Part shown: positions 13,243 to 25,801 of the stretch, one piece after another
Position numbering within the stretch: position 1 is the first letter of the stretch
Layout of the letters: each line of letters begins with the position of its first letter
NCBI GenBank assembly: GCA_964506175.1
Contig: CAZDMB010000005.1
Span: 1-29,218, forward strand
Direction of reading: 5' to 3'
DNA: 29,218 nt
Source: an uncultured Planctomycetales bacterium
GTDB taxonomy: Bacteria; Planctomycetota; UBA1135
Notes under the pieces: model-generated
The model's database searches: none
What the model saw: only the letters and a program-made list of their open reading frames with translations
Told to the model about the DNA's origin: nothing
Program-made: the position numbers and the translations under genes

Positions 13243-14814
13243 GTGCGCGCCTTCCTCTGGATTGCTCTCGCGGTCGGCCTGGGTCTGGCAGCGCGCGGCC
13301 TGCGCCCGCCGGCGCCGCGCGCCGCGGACGCTCCCGGCGCCGAGTTCTCGGCGGAGCGGGCCTTTCCGGCTATCGCGGCGCTGGCCGCCGCTCCGCGGGC
13401 GCGCCCGGCCACGCATCACGAGAAATCGCGCTCCTTTCTCGCGGGACGGCTGCGCGCGCTCGGCTTCGAGCCGCAGGAGCAGGCCGCCGTGGTGGACGGT
13501 CTGCCCGTGCGCAATCTCCTGGCGCGCCGCGCCGGCAGCGGCGCCCAGAGCGGCGCCGTGTTGCTGTGCGCGCACTACGATTCGGTCGCCGCCGGACAGG
13601 GCGCAGGCGACGATGCGCTCGGCTGCGCGGTGCTGCTCGAGCTGCTGCGCGCGCTCGGCGAGGCGCCGCCGCCGGCGCGCGATCTCATCGCGCTGTTCAC
13701 CGACGGCGAAGAGATCGCCCTGCTCGGCGCACGCGCCTTCCTGCTCGGCGGCGACGCCGCTTCCCCGCCGCATCCCTGGGCGCAAGACGTGGCCTTGGCC
13801 TTGAATTTCGAGGCGCGCGGCAGCGGCGGCCCGGCGTGGATGTTCCAGACCAGTGCGGGCAATCTCGACATGGTGCGGGCGCTGGCCGGCGCCCCGGCGC
13901 CTGCTGGGTCCTCGCTGGCGAAGGCGGTGTACGACCGGATGCCGAACGACACCGATTTGACGGTCTTCCTGCGCGCCGGCGTGCCGGGGATGAACTGGGC
14001 CTGCGTGGACCGCTTCGCCTCCTACCACACCAAGCTCGACGTGCCGGAGCGCCTCGATCGCGGCACGCTGCAGCAGATGGGCGATCAGGGCCTGACGATC
14101 GCGCGCTGGGCCCTGGACTGGCGCGGAGCGTTCGACGCCGGCAAAGACGCCGCCTACTTCACCATCCTTGGCGGGGTTTTCGTTCACCATCCGCTGCGCT
14201 GGACGCGCGCGCTGGCGCTCGTGCCTGCGCTCGCCTTTCTCGCGTGGTCGCGAGTCCGCCGACGCCGCCCCGGCGCCGTGGCGCTCGGCTTCCTGCCGGT
14301 GGCGGGCGCCCTGCTGATCGCCGCCGCCGTGATTCTCCTGGCGCAAGCGGCCGCTCCCGGCGCCTTCAGCATGGAGGCTTCCCATGCCAGCGACGACCAT
14401 CTGCGCGCGCTCGGACTGTCCGCCGCCCTGGCCGCAGCCGTGGCCGCGCTGCTGGTGCAGGATTGGGCGCGCCGCCGCTGGCCGCGCGCCGACGGCGATG
14501 CCGCCTCCCTGCTGCTCGCCGGCGCCGGCGCGGTCACCCTTTCCTTCGCCCTTCCCGAGGGCGCCTTCCTGCTGCTCGTGCCCGCGACCTGCGTGCCGCT
14601 GGCGCTGCTCGTGCCAGGAAGCGGCGCGGCCGCGTGGCTGGCGCGCGGCGCCGCCGTCGTGCTGGTGGCGAGCCTGATCGGCACGTGGGTCTACAGCCTG
14701 ATCATCGCCCTCGCCTTGCCGGCGGTGCTGGTTCCTTCGCTGCTGGCCGCGTTCACCGTGCTCGTGTTGCGCCCGCTGTGGACCGCTAGCCCGGCGGCGG
14801 CACCCAGCGCCTGA
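13243..14814 (+). CDS. M28 family membrane metallopeptidase (ER/vacuolar membrane protease-like)
   Basis: C-terminal part of track ORF 12511..14814. GTG 13243 has TAGGAT 5 nt upstream. Motifs LLCAHYDSV, GAGDDALG, FTDGEE, NFEARG, PNDTD and YHTKLD, followed by several TM helices. Confidence 0.9.
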   Translation: MRAFLWIALAVGLGLAARGLRPPAPRAADAPGAEFSAERAFPAIAALAAAPRARPATHHEKSRSFLAGRLRALGFEPQEQAAVVDGLPVRNLLARRAGSGAQSGAVLLCAHYDSVAAGQGAGDDALGCAVLLELLRALGEAPPPARDLIALFTDGEEIALLGARAFLLGGDAASPPHPWAQDVALALNFEARGSGGPAWMFQTSAGNLDMVRALAGAPAPAGSSLAKAVYDRMPNDTDLTVFLRAGVPGMNWACVDRFASYHTKLDVPERLDRGTLQQMGDQGLTIARWALDWRGAFDAGKDAAYFTILGGVFVHHPLRWTRALALVPALAFLAWSRVRRRRPGAVALGFLPVAGALLIAAAVILLAQAAAPGAFSMEASHASDDHLRALGLSAALAAAVAALLVQDWARRRWPRADGDAASLLLAGAGAVTLSFALPEGAFLLLVPATCVPLALLVPGSGAAAWLARGAAVVLVASLIGTWVYSLIIALALPAVLVPSLLAAFTVLVLRPLWTASPAAAPSA

Positions 14815-15691
14815 TGCCGGGCAGGCTGCGGAAGAGCAGCGCGTGATACAGCGCGCGCGGCAGCAGCCGGCGCAGCAGATAGAAGATCCGCGCGTCCGGC
14901 GTCACGGCCATGCGCAAGGGCGGACGCCGCCTCCCCGCGCACGCCAGGATGCGCGCCGCGACTTGGTCCGCCGTCGCCGGCGACTTGAGCATCAACTTGG
15001 CGATGAAGGGACTCATGTGCCGGTAGTAGGCCGCATAGGCGCCCTGTCCCTCCTCCTCGCTTGCCGGCCGCAGCACGCGCGTGAAGGAGTCCGAGCGGAC
15101 GAAGCCGGGCTGCACCAGGCTCACGCGCACTCCCCAGGGCCGCATCTCGTACCACAGCGCCTCGCTCGCGCCTTCGAGCGCCCACTTGCTCGCCGAGTAG
15201 GAGCCCATGGTCGGCATCGCCATCATGCCGCTGACGCTGCTGACGTTCAGGATGCGGCCCCATCGCTGCGCGCGCATGTGGGGCAACACGAGGCGGGCGA
15301 GCGCCACCGGCGCGAAATAATTCACCGCCTGCTGCGCGGCCTCGTCCGCCTCGGACATGTCCTCGAGCGCCGCCCGGTAGGACACGCCGGCATTGTTGAT
15401 GAGCACGTCCACGCCGCCCCAGCGCGCCGCCGCCGCGGCCACCACGGCGCGCCGCTCCTCCGCGCGCGTGACGTCCAGCGGCAGGAGCAGCAGGCCGTCG
15501 CCGTCGCCGAGCGTGGTGGTCAGCGCGGGCAAGGATGCCGGGCGCGCCGTCAGCACGGCGCGGCAGGCGCCCCGCGACGCCGCCGCCGCCAAGCGGCGCG
15601 CCAGCGCCAGCCCGATGCCCGAGGAACAGCCGGTGACCAACACCACCGGCGGCCCGCCGCGGGCCCGGGCGGGAAAGCCCGGTGCGCGCAA
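14786..15691 (-). CDS. Classical short-chain dehydrogenase/reductase
   Basis: TGCSSGIG, NNAG, NVSS and YSASK motifs. The TTG start is supported by TAGACT 7 nt upstream. Overlaps the M28 gene end convergently by 29 nt. Confidence 0.92.
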   Translation of the reverse strand: MRAPGFPARARGGPPVVLVTGCSSGIGLALARRLAAAASRGACRAVLTARPASLPALTTTLGDGDGLLLLPLDVTRAEERRAVVAAAAARWGGVDVLINNAGVSYRAALEDMSEADEAAQQAVNYFAPVALARLVLPHMRAQRWGRILNVSSVSGMMAMPTMGSYSASKWALEGASEALWYEMRPWGVRVSLVQPGFVRSDSFTRVLRPASEEEGQGAYAAYYRHMSPFIAKLMLKSPATADQVAARILACAGRRRPPLRMAVTPDARIFYLLRRLLPRALYHALLFRSLPGIRRWVPPPG

Positions 15692-15709: not shown

Positions 15710-18364
15710 TCACTCCGCCGGGTCGGACTTGCGCTTCGCCTTGCCGGCCGACTTGGCGGCCCGCGCCATCTCCTTCAGACGGCGCTTCAACTCCTTGCGC
15801 ACGTCGCGCCCGAGCCGCTCCTGCAGCACGATCTCCAGTTCGCCGCCGGTTCCCGGGCCCTCGCCCGCGGCCGCCGGCACCGGCGCCGGCGCGCCCGGCC
15901 CGCGCGGTCCCGGCCGGCGCAGCACCACCAGGAAGGGATCGCGCAGCGCGCCGAGGAAACGGCGCCGCGCCAGCACCCGCACGGTGTCGCCGTGCACGAG
16001 CGCCTGCACGCGGCCCGCCCACTTGCAGTCGCGCTGCAAAGCGGCCACCGTCGACAAGCCGGCGTCCACGCCCTGGCGCCGGCCGAGGAGCTCCAGGCAG
16101 GCGCAGCACAGGCCATCCAGCATTTCCTTGTTGCTGACCGGCTGACGGCACAGGCCGCAGGGCTCGGTCTCGCCGACGTCCACCACCAGGCCGCTGATGC
16201 CGCAGTGCACCGCGCGATCGCGCGCAATCCGCTTGCCGGAGAGTTCGCTGATCACCAATTCGTCCGGGAACACGGGCCGGCGCGTGGTCTCGCACAGCAC
16301 GAGCAGCTCCTTCGCGCCGCGTTCGCCGCTCAGCTTCGAAACTCCCATGAACTGCGGCAGCATGCGCCGGCCGCTGCGCGAGCAGGTCTGTAGCATGTCT
16401 GGGCGCACCCGCTTGCCGCTGGCTTCGCAGGTGGCCAGGTACTCGTCCAGCACCTTGTTGCCGCTGACTTGACAAGTTCCGAGGAGTGACGGCAGAACGC
16501 GTTTGCCGGTCGCGGAGCAGGTGGCGAGTTCCTCCGGCAGGGCCGGCGCGCCGGTCACCGCGCAGTGCACGACGATGTCCTCGGTGATCTCGGCTCCCGA
16601 CACCGCCGAACGGACCAGGTTTTCCCGCAGCGTTTTCTTGCCGGTGCGCTCGCACGACACGAGCAGTTCCTTGAGCACCTTGCTGCCGGTCACTTCGTTG
16701 ACGCCGAGCAGCGAGGGCATCACGCGCTTGCCCGTGATGCTGCAGGCCTCGAGCACGCCCGGCGCCACCAGTTCGCCGCTGACTTCGCAGTGCTCGGCCA
16801 CGCGCCGCAGGATGCGCCGGTGGGTGGCCGCGCAGGCCACGAACTGGTCCGGGTGCGCCATCACCCCCGTGGCGGCGCAGCGCTCCAACTTGTCCGGCAG
16901 GGCCTGCCGACCGGTCTCCTGGCACTGCGTCAACTCGGTCGCCAGCACCTGCGCGCCGGTGATCGAGCACGAGCCGAAGCGTTCGGCCAGGGTGTGCAGG
17001 CCGGTGCGCGGGCACTTGCGCAGCAGGCGTTGCAGCACGCGCAAGCCGGTGACGTCGTCCATGCCGAGCAGCGAGCGCCGCACGCGGCGGCGCGTCGCCG
17101 CGCACGTCTCGAGCGCCTCCGGCGCGCACGGCGCGCCGGACTCCTCGCAAGCGATGGCCTTCTCCTTCAGCAACCAGTTGCCCGTCTCGGCGCACTGCAC
17201 CAGCAGGTCCTTGGCCACCCGGCGGCCGGTCACCGCGCAGGTGCCGATGTGCTCGGGCAGCACGCGGCGCCCGGTGGCGGCGCAAGTCTGCAGGAGGGAG
17301 CGCCGCACCCGGCGTCCGGTCGCCGCGCAGGCCTCGAGGCCCTCCGGCAGCACTTGCACGCCGGTGGCCGCGCAGGCGTCGAAGAACTGGGGACGCGCGC
17401 GTTTGCCGGTTTCCGGGCAGACCCGCAGCAGCGTGTGGCGAACTTCGGCGCCGCTCACTTCGCAGCGGCCGAGCGCCTCCGGCAGCACCATCAGGCCGGA
17501 TTCCGCGCACTTGCGCAGGTGGCTCGCGCAGCCGAAGGCGCCCGTCTCCGGGCAACTCGCGCCCTCTTCCGGCAGCAGCCGCGCACCGCAGCTGCTGCAG
17601 GCGCGGATTTCCTGCGGCAGGGCCAGGCGGCCGCTGGCGTCGCTGCGCACCATGGACTCGGGCAGGGCGCGCGCGCCGCTCACGGCGCTGGCCACGAAAA
17701 ACTCCTCCAGGCAGAGTTCGCCGCTGACCGGATCCTGGAACAGCAGGTCGCGCGCGACGCGCTTGCCGGAGCGCGCGCAGGTCGCGACTTCGTCCGGCAA
17801 CAGGGAGCGCCCGCTGGCGGCGCAGTTCACCAACTCGTCGGCGAAGGCCCAGCGGCCGGAGAGCGCGCTGCGCACGAGATCGACCTTCGGGCCGGCGCGG
17901 CCGGAGACCGCGGAGTGGGCGATCTCATCCTGCAGGAAGACGCGTCCGTCCGCCAGGGTCACGCAGCAAGCCGCGCACGCCCTGCCGCCGCCCGCCGTCA
18001 GCGTGAGATGCTCCGCGCACAGCGACTTGTCGCAACCGGCGCAGCTCGCGGCGTGGCGCTCGCAGTGCTCCTTGCCGCAGTCGGCGCAGGCGCTCAGGCC
18101 GCCGCTGTCCTGCGCATGTTCCGGGCAGTGGCCGTTCGTGCAGCCGGGAGTGGCGCAGGTGCGGATGGACCCAGCCGGGACCAGGTGGCCGCTGGCGCAG
18201 GCCCACAGCGGCGCATCCGCCGCGGCGCCGGCGGGCAAAGGCAGTTCGTCGAGCAACACGCCGCTCACCGGCACGCACCGCAGGCGCAACGGCCAGGCGG
18301 CGCTCTGATCGCGGTGGCGCACGCGCGCCTCCACCGTGACGATGGAGTAGAGCACGCCAATCAC
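15710..18364 (-). CDS. Cys-rich repeat protein: B-box-like Zn-finger cluster plus 39 tandem 15-aa C-x-x-[ST]-G repeats; probably the C-terminal half of the upstream helicase-like gene
   Basis: 884 aa ORF with host-like codon use. The frame stays open upstream to 18544 with no ATG/GTG/TTG before 18364, and good codons continue to about 18457 (ADLAAFLQHAAS...). Confidence 0.85.
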   Translation of the reverse strand: MIGVLYSIVTVEARVRHRDQSAAWPLRLRCVPVSGVLLDELPLPAGAAADAPLWACASGHLVPAGSIRTCATPGCTNGHCPEHAQDSGGLSACADCGKEHCERHAASCAGCDKSLCAEHLTLTAGGGRACAACCVTLADGRVFLQDEIAHSAVSGRAGPKVDLVRSALSGRWAFADELVNCAASGRSLLPDEVATCARSGKRVARDLLFQDPVSGELCLEEFFVASAVSGARALPESMVRSDASGRLALPQEIRACSSCGARLLPEEGASCPETGAFGCASHLRKCAESGLMVLPEALGRCEVSGAEVRHTLLRVCPETGKRARPQFFDACAATGVQVLPEGLEACAATGRRVRRSLLQTCAATGRRVLPEHIGTCAVTGRRVAKDLLVQCAETGNWLLKEKAIACEESGAPCAPEALETCAATRRRVRRSLLGMDDVTGLRVLQRLLRKCPRTGLHTLAERFGSCSITGAQVLATELTQCQETGRQALPDKLERCAATGVMAHPDQFVACAATHRRILRRVAEHCEVSGELVAPGVLEACSITGKRVMPSLLGVNEVTGSKVLKELLVSCERTGKKTLRENLVRSAVSGAEITEDIVVHCAVTGAPALPEELATCSATGKRVLPSLLGTCQVSGNKVLDEYLATCEASGKRVRPDMLQTCSRSGRRMLPQFMGVSKLSGERGAKELLVLCETTRRPVFPDELVISELSGKRIARDRAVHCGISGLVVDVGETEPCGLCRQPVSNKEMLDGLCCACLELLGRRQGVDAGLSTVAALQRDCKWAGRVQALVHGDTVRVLARRRFLGALRDPFLVVLRRPGPRGPGAPAPVPAAAGEGPGTGGELEIVLQERLGRDVRKELKRRLKEMARAAKSAGKAKRKSDPAE
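16160..17914 (-). repeat. Coding tandem repeat, 39 x 45 nt (15 aa), consensus C-x-x-[ST]-G-x-x-hydrophobic-x-x-x-x-hydrophobic-x-x
   Basis: Manual parsing from SAVSGRAGPKVDLVR (aa151) to CGISGLVVDVGETEP with no indels. Cys at position 1 in 29/39 units, Ser/Thr at position 4 in 38/39, Gly at position 5 in 36/39. Confidence 0.95.
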
Positions 18365-20927
18365 GCCCTCGCAGCGGGCGCGGAGCTGCGCCTCCGGGGC
18401 GGCGCGGTTGCCGGCGGTCTGCCGCGAAGCGGCATGCTGCAGGAACGCGGCCAGGTCCGCGCTCCCGCGCGGCCCCTTCGATCGTGGCGCCCGCGCGCTG
18501 GAAGGTCGCGGCGAGCGCGGCGCTGGCGGCCTCGTCCAGGGAGCTCACCATGGGCAGCCGCGAGCCATCGGGCGCCGGCAGAGTTTCCGGAGCGTCCAGA
18601 TAGGCCTCGAGCTTGTGCCCCGGGGCGCAGTCGCGTACTTCGAAGAGCGACTCCTGCCGCTCCGGGCCGCTGGCCGCGCAGGCGCTCATCTGCAAGGTGC
18701 TGGCCGCGATGGGTTCGCTCGCGGCGGCGCTCACGGATTCCAACAGCAGACCGTGGGCCGCGAGCCGCTCCTGCAGCTTGCGCGCCACCCGATCGAGCGG
18801 ATAGTTCCGCGCGTCCGCAAGGAAGAAGCGCGAGCCTTCGCGGAAGCCCGCCGTCAGGCGCTGCCAGGCCCACGAGCCCGGCTCGCACACGAGCACGCGC
18901 TCGCCGGCGGCCGGTTGGCGCGCCAGAGTGCGCCCTGCGGGGTCGGGCGTGCGCAACTCGAAGTGCTGGCCGCCCTCCTCCAGCAGGATGCGCTTGTCGT
19001 CGGTGACGTGCCAGCCTCCCGTGCGCAGCTCCAGGCTCGCCGCGACCAATTGCGCGACGCTGAACCGCGGCGGCTCGCCCAGGTTCTCGCGGCGCCGGCG
19101 GGGCGTGGTGCGCACCAGATCTCCGAGCACGCGATCGGTGTTGCGGCGCCGTTCGGCGCGGCCGCTCTCCGCGGCTTTGCGCTTCTCGATCAGCGGCAGC
19201 AACTCCTCCTCGCGCTGCGCGCCTTGGAACCAGTCGGCGGCGCGGCCCAGCAGGAAGCGCAGCCAGCCGCGCGCGCCGTCGGCAAAGCCGAGATCGGCGA
19301 GCCAGCCGCTGACTTCGTCCGGCTCGAGTTCGTGGAAGCCGAGGCGCGTCTGCGCGCCGTTGATGGCCGCGTCCTCGGCGGTGCCCTTGAGCACGAAGCG
19401 CCGGATCTGCGTCTTGCCGGACTTCGCGGCGCCCAGGTGCTCCAGGCGTCCCGCGTGATCGGCGGGCTCGAGCGGCAAGTCGAAGTGCACCAGTTCGGTG
19501 ACGGCGCGAATGGCTTGGCCGCGCGCGGCCGCGTCGGGCGCCAGCAGGATGCGGCGCTCGCCCAGGGTGAAGCGCTGGATGGCGAGGCGATTCAGGCCGT
19601 CGTTGCCCTCCCGCAGGGTTTCAAGGTGCTCGATCAAGCCGGCCTGCGACAGCGCCTGCCCCACGCCCGCGGCCGAAGCGGCGCTGCGCACGCAGACCAG
19701 GATGCGCGCCTCGCGATCCTTGAGCGCCTTGCGCGCCAGCGTCGCCAGCTCCGCCGTCTTCGCGGTCTCGCGCATGTTGCGCCCGCGGACGACCAGATCC
19801 TGCAGCATGCGCTTCAGACCAGCCTCGTTCACGAGGTTGCGCGACAGCGCCTTCTCGACCGCGTCGGCGAAGTGCCACGGTCCGCCGAGAGCGGCGGCCA
19901 GGTAGTGTTCGCGCGCGCCTTCCGGAAAGCCGAGAGCCGCGCGGAAGGCGAGTTCCAGGTATTCCTTCTCGCGCGGCTGCGTCTCGACCAGATGCTCCTT
20001 GACCGTGCGCCGCGGGCGCTTGGCGCCGGCTTCGGCCGGCCCCGCGCCGCGGCGGCGCATCCACGCCGCCAAGCGCGCGCGCAGTTCCTCTTCCGCCCCG
20101 CGGCGGACGAAACGCGCCTGCGCCTCGCCCTGCAAGAAGGTCTGCACGAACTCCTCCCACGGGCCGAGCGGGTGCGGCACCTGGCCGCGCACGAGGTCGA
20201 GCGCGCGGTGCAGCGTGGCGAAGCCGTCGTGCATCGGCGAGGAGCTGCGCGCGAAGACGAAGGCCTGCTCGGCGTTCAGCACGCGCCGCAGGGCGCGCTG
20301 GTTCTCGGCGCTCACTTCGTGCGCCTCGTCGATCAGGAGAATGCCGAATTCACGATCAGCGAGCTGCTGCGCGCGCTGCGCCGCGGTGGCGTGGTCGATC
20401 ACCCAGCAGGCGCCGTCGCGCAGGTGCGCGAAGTCGTCCTCGCCGCAGAGGCGCGCCGGCAGGCCGTATTCGGACTCGAGGCGCTCGACCCATTCCGCCG
20501 CGTTCGCCGCGGGGCACAGCACCAGCAGGCTGTCGGCCTGGCCGCGCTCGATCAGCTCGGCGGCCGCCACGGCCATCGCCTGGCGCACGGCGTCGCCGTC
20601 CTCGTCGCAGACGAGCGCCCGCGGACCCAAGTCGCGCAGCATGGCGAGCGCGTGTTCGATCACCGCGTCCGCCGGCTCGAGTTGCCGGCGCTCCAGACAG
20701 GAGAAATCCGCGCGCTCGTTCAGGGCCAGACCGCGCGCCAACTCGTGCTGCCGCACCGCGAGCCGCAGGCGGAAGGACTTGCGATCCGCCGCCGGCTTGT
20801 CGGCGCTCTCCAGCAGCCAAGCGGCGAGCGCCGGCGCTTCGAAGGGAATCTGTTGCGGAATCGCGGAGGCGCCGGGGTTCGGGGTCCCAGTCGCTCCCGA
20901 AATGGAGGCGGGCGAAAGCTTGCTCAT
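17925..20927 (-). CDS. SNF2/RapA/YqhH-like helicase homolog with degenerate ATPase motifs (pseudo-helicase); genuine coding probably ends near 18459 at a frameshift
   Basis: Likely start is ATG 20927. RALVCDEDGDAVRQ (motif I position), LLVLCPAANAAEW (Ia), LLIDEAHEV (II), ILLAPDAAARG (V) and HFDLPLEPADHAGRL (VI position). Translation turns into low-quality R/A/P-rich sequence after IEGAARER. Confidence 0.75.
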   Translation of the reverse strand: MSKLSPASISGATGTPNPGASAIPQQIPFEAPALAAWLLESADKPAADRKSFRLRLAVRQHELARGLALNERADFSCLERRQLEPADAVIEHALAMLRDLGPRALVCDEDGDAVRQAMAVAAAELIERGQADSLLVLCPAANAAEWVERLESEYGLPARLCGEDDFAHLRDGACWVIDHATAAQRAQQLADREFGILLIDEAHEVSAENQRALRRVLNAEQAFVFARSSSPMHDGFATLHRALDLVRGQVPHPLGPWEEFVQTFLQGEAQARFVRRGAEEELRARLAAWMRRRGAGPAEAGAKRPRRTVKEHLVETQPREKEYLELAFRAALGFPEGAREHYLAAALGGPWHFADAVEKALSRNLVNEAGLKRMLQDLVVRGRNMRETAKTAELATLARKALKDREARILVCVRSAASAAGVGQALSQAGLIEHLETLREGNDGLNRLAIQRFTLGERRILLAPDAAARGQAIRAVTELVHFDLPLEPADHAGRLEHLGAAKSGKTQIRRFVLKGTAEDAAINGAQTRLGFHELEPDEVSGWLADLGFADGARGWLRFLLGRAADWFQGAQREEELLPLIEKRKAAESGRAERRRNTDRVLGDLVRTTPRRRRENLGEPPRFSVAQLVAASLELRTGGWHVTDDKRILLEEGGQHFELRTPDPAGRTLARQPAAGERVLVCEPGSWAWQRLTAGFREGSRFFLADARNYPLDRVARKLQERLAAHGLLLESVSAAASEPIAASTLQMSACAASGPERQESLFEVRDCAPGHKLEAYLDAPETLPAPDGSRLPMVSSLDEAASAALAATFQRAGATIEGAARERGPGRVPAACRFAADRRQPRRPGGAAPRPLRGRDWRALLHRHGGGARAPPRSERRLAVAPAVRAGERRVARRTAFARRRRGGCAAVGLRQRPPGPGWVHPHLRHSRLHERPLPGTCAGQRRPERLRRLRQGALRAPRRELRRLRQVAVRGASHADGGRRQGVRGLLRDPGGRTRLPAG

Positions 20928-21055
20928 GATTGGAAGAAAGGCTCCCTCCTTATCGGGCTGGAAGCGCCCTGGCATGAAACAAGACCTTGCCGTTGTCCTT
21001 CTGCTCCCGGATTCCGCGGCAACCCGGCCCGGTTCTGCCGATAAGAGGGACCGGG

Positions 21056-22555
21056 ATGCGGACCTCAAGGTCACTCGTCGGCGCGGCGTGCGCCGCCGCG
21101 GCGCTGACGGCTTGCCTCGCGGGCGGCGGGGGCACGCCCACGGGCGAGGCGGAACTGGACGTCCAGCTGGCCGCCCTCATCCTCGAGCACGGGCTCACCG
21201 GGAGGCCGGAACTCCTGGCCACGAACGAAGGCGAGAACCTCCCGCGCCTGGACGATCCGCTGGTCGAACTCGGCAAGCGCCTGTTCTTCACGCGCTCTCT
21301 CGGCGGCAACTTCACCTCGACCTGCGCGAGTTGCCACCATCCGCTGCTCGCCGGCGGCGACGCGCTCACCCTGCCGGTCGGGGTGGACGCGGTGGACCCG
21401 GCGCGCGTCGGCCCGGGCCGCCAGCAAGCGCCCGGCGCGGCGGGCTATGACGGCGGCCCCAACGTGCCGCGCAATTCCCCCACCACCTTCAACAGCGTGC
21501 TCTATCGCAAGGCGCTGTTCTGGGACGGCCGCGTGCGCCGCAATCCGCTGGACGGCGGCATCCTGACGCCGGATTCCGCCGGTCCGACCGCCAGCGACCC
21601 GGACGCGGGTCCCTCGCTGCTGGCCGCGCAGGCGCGCTTCCCCGTGACCTCGGAGGAGGAGATGCGCTCCTTCGACTTCGAGATCAACAGCACGCGCGCC
21701 GAGGTGCGCGCGCACCTGGCTGGCCGCCTCGGCCACTACGGCGCCGGCGTCGGCGAGATTCCGGATTCGTGGCTGCCGCTTTTTCGCCGCGCCTTCGATC
21801 AGCCCGCCGGCACCGCCCAGGACCTGATCCACTTCGGCACCATCAACCTCGCGCTCGCCGCGTATCAGGCCTCGCAATTGTTCGTGGACAATCCGTGGAA
21901 CCGCTACGTGCTGGGCGAGACCAAGGCCATCAGCACGGCGGCCAAGCGCGGCGCGCTCCTGTTCTTCCGCACGCCGGCGCACGGCGGCGCCGGTTGCGCC
22001 GCGTGCCATTCCGGCGATTTCTTCACCGACGAGGACTTCCACATCCTCGCCATGCCGCAGGTTGGACGCGGCAAGGGGGACGTCAACGAGCTCGGCGAAG
22101 CCACCGGCGACTTCGGCCGCTGGCAAGTGACGGGAGACGCCCGCGACAAATTCGCCTTCCGCACGCCGACCCTGCTGAACGCCGAGGTGAGCGCGCCCTA
22201 CGGCCATGACGGCGCCTACGACGCGCTGGCGGACGTGATCCGGCATCATCTGGACCCCGTCGGCATGGCCGCGAACTACTACTGGCCGCAGACGGACCCA
22301 GGCACGCAAGTGTCCTCGATGATCCAGAACACCGGCGAGGCGGTGGCGGCGCTGCTGGCGGCGCGGGCGCAAGGCCGCTCGCTGCTGCCGACCGGCGTGG
22401 CCCTGACCAATCAGGACCTCGGCGACCTGCTCGCCTTCATGAAGGCCCTGACGGACGCGCGGGTGAAATCCGCGGCGGCGCTGGAGCCGTGGGTGGCGCG
22501 CGATGACGCGCAATTCACCGACTCGCAGTTGCTCGACGCCAGTTTCCAGAACTGA
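21056..22555 (+). CDS. Di-haem cytochrome c peroxidase / MauG-like lipoprotein
   Basis: Start re-assigned to ATG 21056. Lipobox LTAC; CASCH and CAACH; RNSPTTFN, LFWDGR, FRTPTLLN and PYGHDG. Confidence 0.9.
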   Translation: MRTSRSLVGAACAAAALTACLAGGGGTPTGEAELDVQLAALILEHGLTGRPELLATNEGENLPRLDDPLVELGKRLFFTRSLGGNFTSTCASCHHPLLAGGDALTLPVGVDAVDPARVGPGRQQAPGAAGYDGGPNVPRNSPTTFNSVLYRKALFWDGRVRRNPLDGGILTPDSAGPTASDPDAGPSLLAAQARFPVTSEEEMRSFDFEINSTRAEVRAHLAGRLGHYGAGVGEIPDSWLPLFRRAFDQPAGTAQDLIHFGTINLALAAYQASQLFVDNPWNRYVLGETKAISTAAKRGALLFFRTPAHGGAGCAACHSGDFFTDEDFHILAMPQVGRGKGDVNELGEATGDFGRWQVTGDARDKFAFRTPTLLNAEVSAPYGHDGAYDALADVIRHHLDPVGMAANYYWPQTDPGTQVSSMIQNTGEAVAALLAARAQGRSLLPTGVALTNQDLGDLLAFMKALTDARVKSAAALEPWVARDDAQFTDSQLLDASFQN

Positions 22556-22576
22556 GCACGGCGCGTGGTTTGCCGC

Positions 22577-22582
22577 TAGCAT
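22577..22582 (+). promoter_or_regulatory. Putative -10 box (TAGCAT) 6 nt before ATG 22589
   Basis: Same TAnnnT geometry as at other genes; independently supports 22589 as the true start. Confidence 0.55.
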
Positions 22583-22588
22583 CCTCGG

Positions 22589-23248
22589 ATGCTCGCCGAA
22601 CTCCTCCTGCTCGCCCAGCAGCCCGCCACGGACGCCGCCGTCCCTTCATGACCCGTGTGACCGGGCGAAGGCCAGCCGGTTCGTTGGACCGGCGACACCG
22701 AGAAAGAGCGGCCATACACCTTCAGCCTGCGCTGGATTCCGAACATCGCGGTGGATCGGCCGCGCGTGCGCATGAACCTCGCCTACCGCGCGACCACGCG
22801 CCTGTCGGTGGCCCTGGAATACAACCCGCTCGCGGACGAGGTTCTGCCGAACTTCAACTACTCGCCCTCTTTGCCCGGCGAACACATCGAGGGCGTCGGC
22901 GCGATCGTGGGCCTTTCTTCCGACCGCATCGGCACCCCGAGCGGCGTCGCCTGGTTCGGGACGCTGTCCTGGAACGCGCAGGCGTGGAGCGACCTGCCGC
23001 TCTCCGGCTACGCCGGCCTCGCCTTCGGCACCTACGAGGACGAACTGCGGCCGATCGCCGGCGCCACCTGGAGTTTCAGCGACCGCATCTCCGCCGGCTT
23101 CATCCATGACGGCGAGAACCCGCACTGGATCGGTTCCTATGGCCTGGGCGAACTGGGCCCGGGCGGCGGCCTCTATCAGGCGGATCTGCTGATCATCGAG
23201 CAGGACGGCGTGCGCACCTTCGGCACCACGCTTTCCGTCCGCTTCTAG
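22589..23248 (+). CDS. Candidate selenoprotein: small outer-membrane beta-barrel-like protein with an N-terminal UxxU motif (219 aa if both TGA are decoded)
   Basis: ATG 22589 is in frame with track ORF 22751..23248: MLAELLLLA-QQPATDAAVPS-TGA(22649)-P-V-TGA(22658)-PGEGQPVRWTG... It has a signal peptide, amphipathic strands, SSDRIGTP, a C-terminal beta-signal-like TTLSVRF and a downstream hairpin. Confidence 0.75.
22675..22693 (+). promoter_or_regulatory. Bacterial SECIS-like stem-loop
   Basis: GCCGGU(UC)-GUU-(GG)ACCGGC: six Watson-Crick pairs plus U-G and C-G, with an apical G followed by U. The loop G (22683) lies 22 nt after the second UGA and 31 nt after the first. Confidence 0.65.
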
Positions 23249-23257
23249 AATGGCGCC

Positions 23258-25801
23258 ATGCGCGCGCTGGCGATGCTGACCGCCGCCGCCGCGGCCGCCT
23301 GGGCCGCGGCGCAGGAGCCCGCGGCCGCCGGCGCCGGCGAGGAAGGCCTGCGCCTGTTTCGCGAAGTCGTCGCGCCGACCTTCGCCGCGCAGTGCGCCGA
23401 ATGTCATGACGCCGCTCAACACAAAGGCGATCTGATCTTGACGACCCGCGAGGCCTTGGCGGCCGGCGGCGAAAACGGCGATCCGCTAGCGGGCGAGGAC
23501 CCGCTGCTGCTGCGGCTGATCGAGCACCGCGAGAAGCCCTTCATGCCGCGCAAGAAACCCGCGTTGGAGCCCGCGGTCATCGCGGGCATCCGCCGCTGGA
23601 TCGAACTCGGCGCGCCCTACGCGCACCCGATCGAGACGGAGGCGAGGCAGTGGTGGTCCTTCGGGGCGCTGCGCCCGCCGGCCGCGCCCCCCGGCGCCGG
23701 CCACCCGATCGACGCCTTCCTCGGCGCCGCGCCACCGCCCGCCGACCGCGCCACCTTGATCCGCCGTTTGTGGCTCGACCTGCTGGGCTTGTCGCCGACG
23801 CGCGCCGAGGTGGCGGCCTTCGTCGCCGACGCGCGGCCGAACGCCTGGGAGTTGCTGGTGGAGACCGCGCTCGCCAGCCCGCGCTACGGCGAACGCTGGG
23901 GCCGCCACTGGCTCGACGCCGCCCGCTACGCGGACAGCGCCGGCTACGAGTTCGACGTCGAGCGCCCCAACGCCTGGCCGTACCGCGACTTCGTCATCGA
24001 CGCCGTCAACGACGACCTGCCGTGGGACGAGTTCCTGCGCTGGCAACTTGCCGGCGACGAACTGGCGCCCGGCGACGCGCGCGCCGTGGCGGCGACCGGC
24101 TTCCTCGCGGCCGGCCCGCGCGTGGACAACCAGGTGCTCGAGGATCTGCGCTACGACGAGCTCGACGACATGCTGGCCACCACCGGCAGCGCGATGCTCG
24201 GCCTGACGGTGGCCTGCGCCCGCTGCCACGACCACAAGTACGACCCGATTCCGCAGAAGGATTACTACTCGATGCTGGCGGCCTTCACCAGCACGGAATT
24301 CGTGGACGCTCCCTTGCGCGGACAGAGTTCGGCGGCGGAAGTGCTGGCGGCGGCGCGGCGCAGCGCGTGGCGCTACGCCACCGCGGCGCCGCCGGCCGGC
24401 TGGGAGCGCGAAGGTTTCGACGACGGCGCCTGGAGCAGCGGCACGGGAGGCTTCGGCGCGCCGGGCACCCCGGGCGCGGAGCTCGGCACCGAGTGGCATG
24501 GCGCGGACATCTGGCTGCGGCGCAACTTCGCCTGGAAGGAGGCGCCGCTCGGCCTCTGGCTGCACCACGACGAGGACGTCGAAATCTTCCTCAATGGTGA
24601 AAAGATCTTCGCCGAAGCCGGCTTCCTGAAGGAATACGAGTTCGTCGAGCTGCCGGCGGCCAAGCCGCGGCCGAACGCGGACAACCTGCTGGCGGTGCAC
24701 TGCCGCCAGAGCGTCGGCGGCCAGTACGTGGACGTCATTCCGGTGAGCCGCGAGGATTTCGAGCGGGCGCGGCGGCACCTGGGCTCGGTGTTGGCGGTGC
24801 GCGACCGCGGCCCGGAGCCGGCGGAATCCTGGCTGCTCGAACGCGGCAACCCGGGAACCAAGAAGGAGCGCGTGACCCTCGGCTTCCTCACGGCGGTCGG
24901 CGACGGCAGCCGCAGCCCGGCGGACTACCTCGCGGCGGCGCGCGCCGGCTTGCAAGCCCGTGCTCAGGACGGCGCCGCGCCGCGCTCGACCGGCCAGCGC
25001 GCGGCCCTGGCGCTGTGGCTCACCGACGTCGCGCACGGGGCCGGCGCGCTGGCCGCGCGCGTGGCGGTGAACCGGATCTGGCAGCACCATTTCGGGCGAG
25101 GACTGATGGCCACCGCCGGCGACTTCGGCGCGCAGGGCGATCCGCCGGAGCATCCCGAATTGCTGGAGTGGCTGGCCGCCGACTTCGTGCGGCGCGGATG
25201 GTCGGTCAAGGAGATGCACCGCCTGATCCTGACGAGCGCGGCGTGGCGTCAGGCGGGAGCCGGCGCCGGCCCGCGCCGCCTCGAAGGCGAGATCGTCCGC
25301 GACCGCATCCTGCAGACGAGCGGCTGCCTGAACTTGGCGATGGGCGGCCCCGCGGTCCAGCCCTGGATCCACCCCGACGCGATCGCCACCGGCTCGACCA
25401 AGAAGTGGCCCGAAAACGTCGTGGACGGGCCGAACACCTGGCGGCGCAGCGTCTACGTGTTGATCCGGCGCAGCGTGATGTTCCCGATGTTCGAAGTGTT
25501 TGACGGGCCCACCGCGCAGCAGGCGTGCACGCGCCGCAACCTGACCACCACCCCCTTGCAGGCGCTCACGCTGCTCAACGACGCCTTCGTGCGCGACCAG
25601 GCGCGGCGCTTTGCGGCGCGGCTCGAACAGGAGCATCCCGGCGACCGGAGCGCGCAGGTCGAAGCCGCTTTCTGGGATGCGCTGGCGCGCGCGCCGACCG
25701 CGCAGGAACGCGCCGAAGCCCTGGAGTTTCTCGCGCGCAGCCCCCTGGCCGACTTCTGCCAGGTGCTGTTCGCCCTGGACGAGTTCGTGTACGTGGATTA
25801 G
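23258..25801 (+). CDS. Planctomycete cytochrome c + DUF1549 + DUF1553 (PSD1) protein with an inserted galactose-binding-like domain
   Basis: CAECH; WWSF...[68 protein letters not shown] and [15 protein letters not shown] lies 6 nt upstream. Confidence 0.93.

What the first reader, a model, noticed from the sequence alone, without database searches (positions are those of the whole stretch)
16160..17914. 39 perfectly phased 15-aa C-x-x-[ST]-G repeats forming a probable Cys-lined solenoid
Seen: 585 aa of indel-free 15-residue periodicity, with Cys in 29/39 units (otherwise Ser, Asp or Asn), S/T in 38/39 and Gly in 36/39. The units are diverged at DNA level, so this is an old repeat kept under selection rather than a recent expansion. 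Unit 8 (CSSCG) and the unit after the array (CGLC...CCAC) keep a full CxxC, and a B-box-like Cys/His cluster (about 17963-18199) precedes the array. Inference: the repeat derives from a zinc-knuckle CxxCG with the second Cys replaced by S/T, and forms a beta-hairpin rod with a ladder of thiols (metal, Fe-S or persulfide binding, redox sensing, or a nucleic-acid or phage-protein binding scaffold). I do not recognise it as a named Pfam repeat.
Basis: partly seen in the sequence, partly recalled or inferred. Interest (0 to 1): 0.8.

Follow-up and report, generated by a model that had tools for sequence, protein, structure and literature searches.

The report
Mostly zinc-free knuckle-repeat rod protein
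The 39 in-phase 15-residue repeats are real. They most likely form a long rod of zinc-finger-like hairpins that have nearly all lost their zinc, on the tail of a helicase-like protein whose motor motifs are dismantled, so the cysteines look like buried leftovers rather than a metal-binding ladder.

Summary
Residues 151-735 of the minus-strand ORF 15710-18364 are 39 gapless 15-residue units (Cys 29/39 at position 1, S/T 38/39, Gly 36/39). Shuffled sequences give at most 3 in-phase motifs against 35 observed.

The ORF is not a separate gene. It is the C-terminal half of a 1739-aa SNF2-like protein, split in this assembly by a 2-nt gap in a CG run. Two same-genus genomes and one independent sludge metagenome contig carry the intact form.

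AlphaFold models each unit as a knuckle loop, a strand, a 3-10 turn and a strand (pLDDT 96.5 for 8 units). The nearest solved folds are LIM, FYVE and PHD zinc fingers, but only weakly (Z up to 5.4).

Covariation over about 4000 family units places the former zinc site between positions 1 and 4 of one unit and positions 9 and 12 of the next. It is now filled either by Cys/Thr plus Leu or by Ser/Ser plus Glu. Ser at position 1 goes with Glu at position 12 of the next unit in 93% of family units and 7/7 here.

Only one junction (C256, C259, C279, H282) keeps a full ligand set. Complete zinc modules cap both ends. A metal-binding thiol ladder is therefore unlikely.

No Pfam, NCBIfam or PDB entry and no paper found covers the repeat. 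This scan has reported the same repeat family four times on other DNA. Function is untested.

The parts
15710..20927 (-). Whole gene as it should read: a 1739-aa protein (window:15713-18457~18459-20927:-) made of an SNF2-like half, a zinc module, a 39-unit array, a zinc ribbon and a C-terminal cap
   Evidence: Same-genus genomes G002 and G003 have single ORFs of 1805 and 1739 aa that cover both window ORFs. P0003 aligns to both halves.
18457..18458 (-). Frameshift site. Two bases (CG) are missing from a CG run, which splits the gene into ORFs 17925-21074 and 15710-18364.
   Evidence: Sequence read. The ortholog reads AARER-S-DLASF across the site. A contig from independent sludge run X4 has CG inserted behind 18457. 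Contigs of X1 and X3 end at or just beside the site: X1 at 18457/18459, X3 at 18462/18469.
18459..20927 (-). SNF2-like half with degenerate ATPase motifs (I GLGKT to GDAVR, III TATP to RSSSP, V and VI degenerate; DEAH kept), plus a linker region
   Evidence: Motif alignment against 18 canonical family members. Only weak Pfam, PADLOC and NCBIfam helicase hits. dN/dS 0.36.
17963..18199 (-). N-terminal zinc module (residues 56-134). Ligand sets are C70/C75/C80/H83, C93/C96/C101/H104 and C108/C111/C116/H119 (two C-x2-C-x4-C-x2-H units 15 residues apart), then C130/C133/C134.
   Evidence: Conserved in P0123, P0124 and P0003.
16160..17914 (-). 39 in-phase 15-residue units (residues 151-735), consensus C-A-[VA]-[TS]-G-[RK]-R-V-L-P-[ED]-x-L-x-x
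   Evidence: AF2 pLDDT is 80-90 in the whole-protein model and 96.5 for residues 253-372.
17519..17599 (-). The one junction in the array with a full ligand set: C256 and C259 (unit 8 knuckle) plus C279 and H282 (positions 9 and 12 of unit 9)
   Evidence: The same pattern is conserved in P0125-P0129 and P0131; in P0130 and P0132 only position 1 of the second unit differs.
16097..16159 (-). C-terminal zinc-ribbon-like unit: C736/C739 and C753/C754/C756
15713..16096 (-). C-terminal cap: a small alpha/beta domain (about residues 770-850, with low-confidence loops) and a Lys/Arg-rich terminal helix (853-880)
   Evidence: AF2 secondary structure. Residues up to 817 align with P0003.

Best explanation
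The array is a long, mostly metal-free rod made of degenerate zinc-knuckle units.

The unit. Each 15-residue unit is a knuckle loop (positions 1-6), a short strand (7-9), a 3-10 turn (10-12, often P-E-x) and a second strand (13-15) that leads into the next knuckle.

The former zinc site. Neighbouring units interlock. The pocket where zinc sat in the ancestral C-x2-C...C-x2-H unit lies between positions 1 and 4 of unit i and positions 9 and 12 of unit i+1. Here that pocket is filled in one of two metal-free ways. In 29 units it holds an apolar plug: Cys1 with Thr/Ser4, and Leu or another hydrophobic residue in the next unit. In 7 units it holds a hydrogen-bonded cluster: Ser1, Ser4 and Glu12 of the next unit. 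The three Asp/Asn units have a polar or basic residue at position 12 of the next unit.

Where zinc probably remains. One junction (C256, C259, C279, H282) probably still binds zinc. Complete zinc modules cap the rod at both ends.

Consequence for the cysteines. They are retained former ligands that now act as small buried residues, one per junction. They do not form a metal-binding ladder.

The whole protein. The rod is the C-terminal half of one 1739-aa protein. Its N-terminal SNF2 motor has lost its ATPase motifs in this genus. In relatives the same rod follows an intact SNF2 motor and the gene lies among defence and mobile genes. I therefore infer that the rod is a stiff arm or extended binding platform holding the C-terminal cap away from the motor, and that in this genus it works without ATP hydrolysis.

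Shown: the repeat, the gene fusion, purifying selection, the covariation and the degenerate motifs. Predicted by a model only: the fold. Inferred: the buried role of Cys and the arm or platform function.
For: - Repeat and phase.
- Fusion: single ORFs in G002 and G003 and the CG insertion in run X4.
- Fold: AF2 pLDDT 96.5 and pTM 0.77 for 8 units, with one hairpin per unit; 80-90 across the whole array.
- Nearest solved folds are all zinc fingers: tandem LIM by Foldseek (E 0.04, TM 0.38); FYVE, Slp4, PHD and RING at Z 5.4-4.3 over 4 units.
- Predicted rods in proteins named RING-, B-box-, LIM- or DZANK-type, HerA, Mrr or amidoligase match at query-normalised TM 0.6-0.79.
- Site geometry: 25 family units have Cys at positions 1 and 4. 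In 15 of them the next unit has Cys or His at positions 9 and 12; the same unit never does and the previous unit does once. The background rate is 22 of 4072.
- Two fillings: Ser1 goes with Glu12 of the next unit in 93% of cases, against 13% for Cys1, which goes with Leu in 38% (Cramer's V 0.80). In the window this holds 7/7, and 20 of 29 Cys units are followed by a hydrophobic residue there.
- The residue at position 1 is nearly fixed unit by unit among orthologs down to 40% identity: all 29 Cys kept in six of seven orthologs and 28 in the seventh; 5-7 of the 7 Ser kept.
- dN/dS: array 0.19-0.25, helicase-like half 0.36.
- Motor motifs.
- Contexts of motor-intact relatives: type I R-M with HEPN_AbiU2 and an integrase; HipA with AbiEi/Eii; DUF2130 with ParB_N, an RNase H-like domain and a helicase; AAA_13 with DUF2130; an SbcCD-like pair with HTH/M78.
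- Patchy distribution: found in 3 of 200 other genomes sampled from the phylum.
- Zinc-knuckle definition (CPxCG in the hairpin turn, two Cys per knuckle): PMC5906684.
Against: - I could not inspect model coordinates, so burial of the thiols and the distances between them are inferred from covariation and from the residue pattern.
- AF2 does not model metals and may give zinc-finger shapes to any knuckle-like sequence.
- Keeping all 29 Cys at 40% identity is strong conservation for a mere packing residue, so a thiol-specific role is not excluded.
- The covariation counts include related sequences and duplicated units, so they overstate independence. At least one ortholog pairs Cys1 with Glu12.
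- The defence association rests on five neighbourhoods, not on an enrichment test.
- This genus's copy sits among housekeeping genes.
- No experiment exists for any family member.
Confidence: 0.68

Rival explanations
1. One reading: the position-1 cysteines form a functional ladder that binds metal or Fe-S, carries persulfide or senses redox state along the rod.
For: - Cys fraction is 74%, at the 95th percentile of the family (median 54%).
- All 29 Cys are kept in six of seven orthologs down to 40% identity, and 28 in the seventh.
- The window also holds a persulfide dioxygenase-rhodanese gene and a divergently transcribed di-haem cytochrome c peroxidase gene. The latter is also next to the G002 ortholog.
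Against: - At most two of the four site positions are Cys or His at 38 of the 39 junctions, usually only the position-1 Cys.
- Ser replaces Cys in 40% of family units, with a compensating Glu.
- Partner positions are mostly Leu and other hydrophobic residues, as expected for a buried apolar pocket.
- The peroxidase gene does not adjoin the G003 ortholog; the PSCyt2 gene does.
- Relatives sit among defence genes, not redox genes.
Confidence: 0.1
2. The array itself is the working surface. It is an extended nucleic-acid-binding (or protein-binding) platform that lies along DNA or RNA, rather than a passive spacer.
For: - Positions 6 and 7 are Arg or Lys in 19 of 39 units each, and position 11 is acidic in 24 of 39, which gives charged stripes.
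- It is fused to a DNA motor family.
- The array is more constrained than the motor half.
- Zinc-bearing look-alike rods are fused to HerA helicase and Mrr nuclease domains.
Against: Net charge is only +11 over 585 residues. No nucleic-acid-binding family matches. There is no structural model with a ligand. This rival overlaps with the main explanation and differs only in what the rod does.
Confidence: 0.3
3. The locus is a decaying pseudogene: a dead helicase plus a frameshift, with no present function.
For: The frameshift in the window, the dismantled ATPase motifs and contigs that end at or beside the site in two runs.
Against: - dN/dS is 0.19-0.25 for the array and 0.36 for the motor half, across three genus members.
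- Intact single ORFs in G002 and G003.
- The in-frame CG form in run X4.
- High GC3 in frame over the whole ORF.
Confidence: 0.05
4. The array is a pentapeptide-repeat-like beta-helix (15 = 3 x 5), a DNA mimic like Qnr or MfpA.
For: A profile of 8-unit windows hits designed pentapeptide-repeat solenoids (E 5e-4), MfpA (E 0.04) and QnrB1 (E 0.7) in the PDB sequences. Positions 3-5 ([VA]-[ST]-G) resemble the pentapeptide L-[ST]-G.
Against: - No Pfam pentapeptide model hits, even at E<=1.
- Only one of the three pentads in a unit fits the motif.
- AF2 gives hairpins at pLDDT 96.5.
- The structural matches are zinc fingers, not beta-helices.
- The CxxC/CxxH covariation fits a zinc-site origin.
Confidence: 0.03

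Closest known systems
Tandem LIM domains and cross-braced FYVE/PHD/RING zinc fingers (e.g. PDB 7d2t PINCH1 LIM4-5, 5x6t Slp4, 2yw8, 1joc)
   Same: Chains of short beta-hairpins whose turns are zinc knuckles. There are about 14-15 residues per knuckle, and four units superpose on one two-zinc finger (50 residues aligned, rmsd about 3 A, Z 4.3-5.4).
   Different: Those domains need two Cys/His pairs for each zinc. Here 38 of the 39 junctions hold at most two ligand-type residues, usually one. The match is weak (Z under 6, Foldseek E 0.04) and there is no sequence relationship. The array is 39 units long rather than 4.
Zinc ribbon / CPxCG zinc knuckle (as defined in PMC5906684)
   Same: The knuckle motif sits in the hairpin turn: C-x-x-[ST]-G here against C-P-x-C-G. 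Intact CxxC units survive at unit 8, before the array and after it.
   Different: The second knuckle Cys is S/T, and the partner ligand pair is replaced by Leu or by Glu. It is therefore stabilised by packing and hydrogen bonds, not by metal.
The unnamed SNF2 helicase family with a 15-residue [CS]-x-h-[ST]-G repeat tail, reported by this scan on other DNA (e1-549329, e1-2535847, e1-1305263, e1-1924892)
   Same: Same repeat unit, same position after the SNF2 domains, and the same absence from Pfam, NCBIfam, PADLOC and the PDB. About 412 clusters at 50% identity.
   Different: This genus's version has dismantled ATPase motifs. It also has one of the longest and most Cys-rich arrays (39 units against a median of about 15 for the longest in-phase run; 74% Cys against 54%), an added complete zinc module in front, and a housekeeping rather than a defence neighbourhood.
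DISARM DrmD, BREX BrxHI and Hma HmaA (SNF2-like defence helicases)
   Same: The motor halves of canonical family members hit these models at E 1e-45 to 1e-62. Several relatives lie among defence genes.
   Different: All scores are far below the NCBIfam cut-offs (210 against 610 bits for DrmD). The hits cover only the helicase core. No DrmA/B/C, BREX or Hma partner genes were seen. The window protein itself hits DrmD at only E 4e-10.

Membership tests
Zinc ribbon / zinc-knuckle metal site | Four Cys/His ligands per site, two from each of two ligand pairs | tested here: not met
   Only the junction of units 8 and 9 (C256, C259, C279, H282) has four. The other 38 junctions have at most two, usually only the position-1 Cys. 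The flanking modules (residues 70-134 and 736-756) do meet it.
Zinc ribbon / zinc-knuckle metal site | Knuckle motif in the turn of a beta-hairpin | tested here: met
   In the AF2 model positions 1-6 form the loop between two strands in every unit. This rests on a model only.
LIM / FYVE / PHD / RING fingers | Significant sequence or fold match to the domain | tested here: not met
   No Pfam hit. Best Z is 5.4 and best Foldseek E is 0.04, both below levels that indicate homology.
Pentapeptide repeat (Qnr/MfpA) | Tandem A(D/N)LXX pentads recognised by the Pfam Pentapeptide models, forming a quadrilateral beta-helix | tested here: not met
   No Pfam hit at E<=1. The model shows hairpins. There are only marginal PDB profile hits.
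SNF2 / Swi2 ATPase | Intact motifs I (GxGKT), II (DEAH), III, V and VI (QRxGR) | tested here: not met
   Only DEAH is kept. Motif I reads GDAVR, III reads RSSSP and VI reads HAGRLEHLG. SNF2-rel_dom scores E 0.25. Homology to SNF2 is clear from the relatives.
DISARM DrmD | Score above the NCBIfam cut-off, and drmA/B/C neighbours | tested here: not met
   38.6 bits against a cut-off of 610. The neighbours are an SDR and a cytochrome c peroxidase.
Unnamed 15-residue knuckle-repeat SNF2 family (earlier reports of this scan) | In-phase [CS]-x-h-[ST]-G 15-mers after an SNF2-type N-terminal half, plus a conserved C-terminal cap | tested here: met
Unnamed 15-residue knuckle-repeat SNF2 family (earlier reports of this scan) | Unit number changes in steps of four (claimed in earlier notes) | tested here: inconclusive
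   P0003 has exactly 4 more units (43 against 39). With the two flanking degenerate units the window total would be 41 = 4x10+1. However, my crude counts show no clean mod-4 pattern, and unit similarity at lag 4 is not significant (p 0.11).

The most novel reading that the evidence does not exclude
The 29 single, strictly conserved thiols, one at each former zinc pocket, act as a distributed redox or persulfide sensor. Oxidation or sulfuration would loosen or stiffen the rod. That would make this motor-dead protein an ATP-independent stress sensor, in a genome region that also carries sulfane-sulfur and peroxide enzymes.
Probability: 0.07. Interest if true: 0.8.

Novelty: new variant of a known kind. 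Interest (0 to 1): 0.55.

Why it matters
If the model holds, this is a clear natural case of a zinc-finger polymer that swapped metal for packing. It did so in two different ways within one protein (Cys/Leu plug, Ser/Glu cluster) and kept one metal site as a relic. That gives a direct system for asking how small metal-stabilised folds become metal-free.

It also defines an undescribed repeat present in roughly 400 sequence clusters of SNF2 helicases, several of them in defence islands. The role of a long rod behind a DNA motor (ruler, arm or sensor) is open. The motor-dead but conserved version in this genus suggests that the rod has a function of its own.

Tried and rejected
- Pfam, NCBIfam and PADLOC scans of the repeat protein gave only sub-threshold noise.
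- phmmer against PDB sequences found nothing.
- The ESM Atlas feature search gave only unnamed Planctomycetota clusters at score 0.84.
- Foldseek of the whole 884-aa model against the PDB was useless because the rod is long and flexible. A separate 8-unit model was needed.
- My first attempt at an in-register repeat alignment failed. MAFFT slid overlapping windows onto each other (A2; A3 was still 228 columns). A3 nevertheless gave a confident model.
- The pentapeptide-repeat lead from the PDB profile search was rejected.
- The 'steps of four' claim could not be confirmed or refuted with my crude unit counter.
- Five literature searches found no description of the repeat.
- Cluster look-ups gave only generic names such as 'SNF2-related protein'.
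Full report
**1. The observation**

The minus-strand ORF 15710-18364 encodes 884 residues. Residues 151-735 (nt 16160-17914) divide into 39 consecutive 15-mers with no insertion or deletion. Position 1 is Cys in 29 units, Ser in 7, Asp in 2 and Asn in 1. Position 4 is Thr or Ser in 38. Position 5 is Gly in 36. Positions 3, 8, 9 and 13 are hydrophobic. Positions 6 and 7 are often Arg or Lys, and position 11 is often Asp or Glu.

The motif [CSDN]xx[ST]G occurs 35 times in one phase. In 2000 shuffles the mean was 0.9 and the maximum 3. The DNA copies are only 49% identical on average, and Tandem Repeats Finder sees no 45-nt array. dN/dS of the array against two same-genus orthologs is 0.19-0.25.

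**2. The gene is larger than the finding**

The upstream ORF 17925-21074 overlaps this one. Past about residue 870 it reads like out-of-frame, Arg-rich sequence.

The three same-genus genomes searched all have a match, and the other 27 relatives searched have none. Two of them, G002 and G003, encode one continuous protein of 1805 and 1739 aa covering both window ORFs. The best database hit, P0003, aligns to both halves.

At 18457/18458 the window reads GAG CGC G GAC CTG, where the G003 ortholog reads Glu-Arg-Ser-Asp-Leu. Logan contigs were laid from four metagenome runs. A contig from an independent sludge study (X4) has 'CG' inserted behind 18457, which restores the frame. Contigs of X1 and X3 end at or just beside this point. 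The split is therefore an assembly error or a strain variant in a CG run. The natural product is window:15713-18457~18459-20927:- (1739 aa).

**3. The family**

A word-based search and an exhaustive HMMER search find 231 and 412 relatives respectively. Nearly all are 1200-2100-aa proteins with SNF2-rel_dom and Helicase_C at the N-terminus and the repeat array behind.

No Pfam, NCBIfam or PADLOC model covers the array. No PDB sequence matches it. Public names are generic, such as 'SNF2-related protein'. Five literature searches found no description.

Only 3 of 200 other genomes sampled from the phylum have a match, so the distribution is patchy.

Earlier notes of this scan describe the same repeat family on other DNA (e1-549329, e1-2535847, e1-1305263, e1-1924892). 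I treated these as leads only.

**4. Fold**

- AlphaFold2 with a 40-sequence alignment gives pLDDT 80-90 over the array.
- An 8-unit piece (residues 253-372) gives pLDDT 96.5 and pTM 0.77.
- In both models each unit reads as a loop (positions 1-6), a strand (7-9), a 3-10 turn (10-12) and a strand (13-15). That is one knuckle-type hairpin per unit, joined by short turns.
- Solved structures match only weakly, and all the best matches are zinc fingers. These are tandem LIM (Foldseek E 0.04, TM 0.38) and FYVE, Slp4, PHD and RING, with four units aligned over about 50 residues at Z 4.3-5.4.
- Predicted structures match much better by query-normalised TM: 0.79, 0.73, 0.72, 0.72 and 0.69. They include same-family helicases and proteins named RING-, B-box-, LIM- or DZANK-type, HerA, Mrr and amidoligase.

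The rod architecture therefore exists in zinc-bearing form elsewhere. This array is a version with few ligands.

**5. Where the zinc used to be, from sequence alone**

I built a position matrix from the family and phased 4072 units in about 240 proteins.

- *Full sites.* Twenty-five units have Cys at positions 1 and 4. In 15 of them the next unit has Cys or His at positions 9 and 12. The same unit never does, and the previous unit does once. The background rate is 22 of 4072. A complete site is thus the knuckle of unit i plus positions 9 and 12 of unit i+1.
- *Covariation.* The strongest covariation with position 1 is at position 12 of the next unit. With Ser1 it is Glu in 93% of cases. With Cys1 it is Leu in 38% and Glu in only 13% (Cramer's V 0.80). 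Ser1 also goes with Ser4, and Cys1 with Thr4.
- *In the window.* All 7 Ser units are followed by Glu12. Twenty of the 29 Cys units are followed by a hydrophobic residue. The three Asp/Asn units are followed by Ser, Arg and Asn. The junction of units 8 and 9 has the full set C256, C259, C279 and H282. This set is conserved in P0125-P0129 and P0131; in P0130 and P0132 only position 1 of the second unit differs.
- *Conservation.* Position-1 identity is nearly fixed unit by unit among orthologs down to 40% identity. All 29 Cys are kept in six of seven orthologs and 28 in the seventh. Of the 7 Ser, 5-7 are kept. Co-adaptation with the partner residue explains this.
- *Caveat.* Related sequences and duplicated units inflate these counts.

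**6. The ends**

Residues 56-134 hold two C-x2-C-x4-C-x2-H units exactly 15 residues apart (C93... and C108...). A C-x4-C-x4-C-x2-H set precedes them and C130/C133/C134 follows. After the array come C736/C739 and C753/C754/C756.

**7. The motor**

Compared with 18 canonical relatives, this clade (the window, G002, G003, P0125 and partly P0126) has lost motifs I, III, V and VI and keeps DEAH. The motor half is still under purifying selection (dN/dS 0.36), though less than the array.

**8. Context**

Motor-intact relatives lie beside:
- a type I R-M system, HEPN_AbiU2 and an integrase;
- HipA and AbiEi/AbiEii;
- DUF2130, ParB_N, an RNase H-like domain, a helicase and an IS element;
- AAA_13 and DUF2130;
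- an SbcCD-like pair and HTH/M78.

The window copy lies between an SDR gene, 18 nt downstream on the same strand, and a divergent di-haem cytochrome c peroxidase gene. The peroxidase is also next to the G002 ortholog, while G003 has the PSCyt2 gene there. P0126 also has housekeeping neighbours.

**9. Reading**

The array is a mostly metal-free rod of interlocked degenerate zinc knuckles. It is capped by complete zinc modules and keeps one internal site with a full ligand set. The cysteines are retained former ligands that now act as small buried residues.

Function is inferred only. I read the rod as an arm or binding platform behind an SNF2 motor in defence-type genes, retained in this genus after the motor lost its ATPase motifs.

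The thiol-ladder idea is unlikely but not excluded. A pseudogene and a pentapeptide beta-helix are both poorly supported.

Noticed in passing
window 18459-20927 (-): The SNF2-like half has lost motifs I, III, V and VI but keeps DEAH and is still under purifying selection (dN/dS 0.36). The same holds in G002, G003 and P0125. Sister proteins P0127-P0132 are canonical.
   Followed up: partly
window 18457-18458: A 2-nt (CG) gap in a CG run splits the gene. One independent metagenome contig carries the in-frame form, and contigs from two other runs end at or beside this spot.
   Followed up: yes
L008:6526-7794 and the P0108 neighbourhood: A DUF2130 gene lies within a few genes upstream of the repeat-bearing SNF2 helicase in two different family members (P0092 and P0108). 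It may be a recurring partner.
   Followed up: no
P0003 residues about 664-760 against window residues 140-150: The closest non-genus relative has exactly four extra units (60 residues) at the start of the array, 43 against 39. This agrees with the 'steps of four' claim in earlier scan notes.
   Followed up: partly
window 14786-15691 (-): A short-chain dehydrogenase gene starts 18 nt after the stop codon of the repeat protein, on the same strand, so the two may be co-transcribed.
   Followed up: no
window 20987-25801 (+): A di-haem cytochrome c peroxidase gene, a small ORF and a PSCyt1/PSCyt2/PSD1 protein gene are transcribed divergently from the repeat gene. The peroxidase gene adjoins the ortholog in G002, but in G003 the PSCyt2 gene adjoins it directly. 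These families suggest a Planctomycetota-like genome.
   Followed up: partly
A3 profile against PDB sequences: The 8-unit profile weakly hits designed pentapeptide-repeat solenoids, MfpA and QnrB1. This probably reflects the shared x-x-[LV]-[ST]-G pentad recurring every 15 residues.
   Followed up: partly
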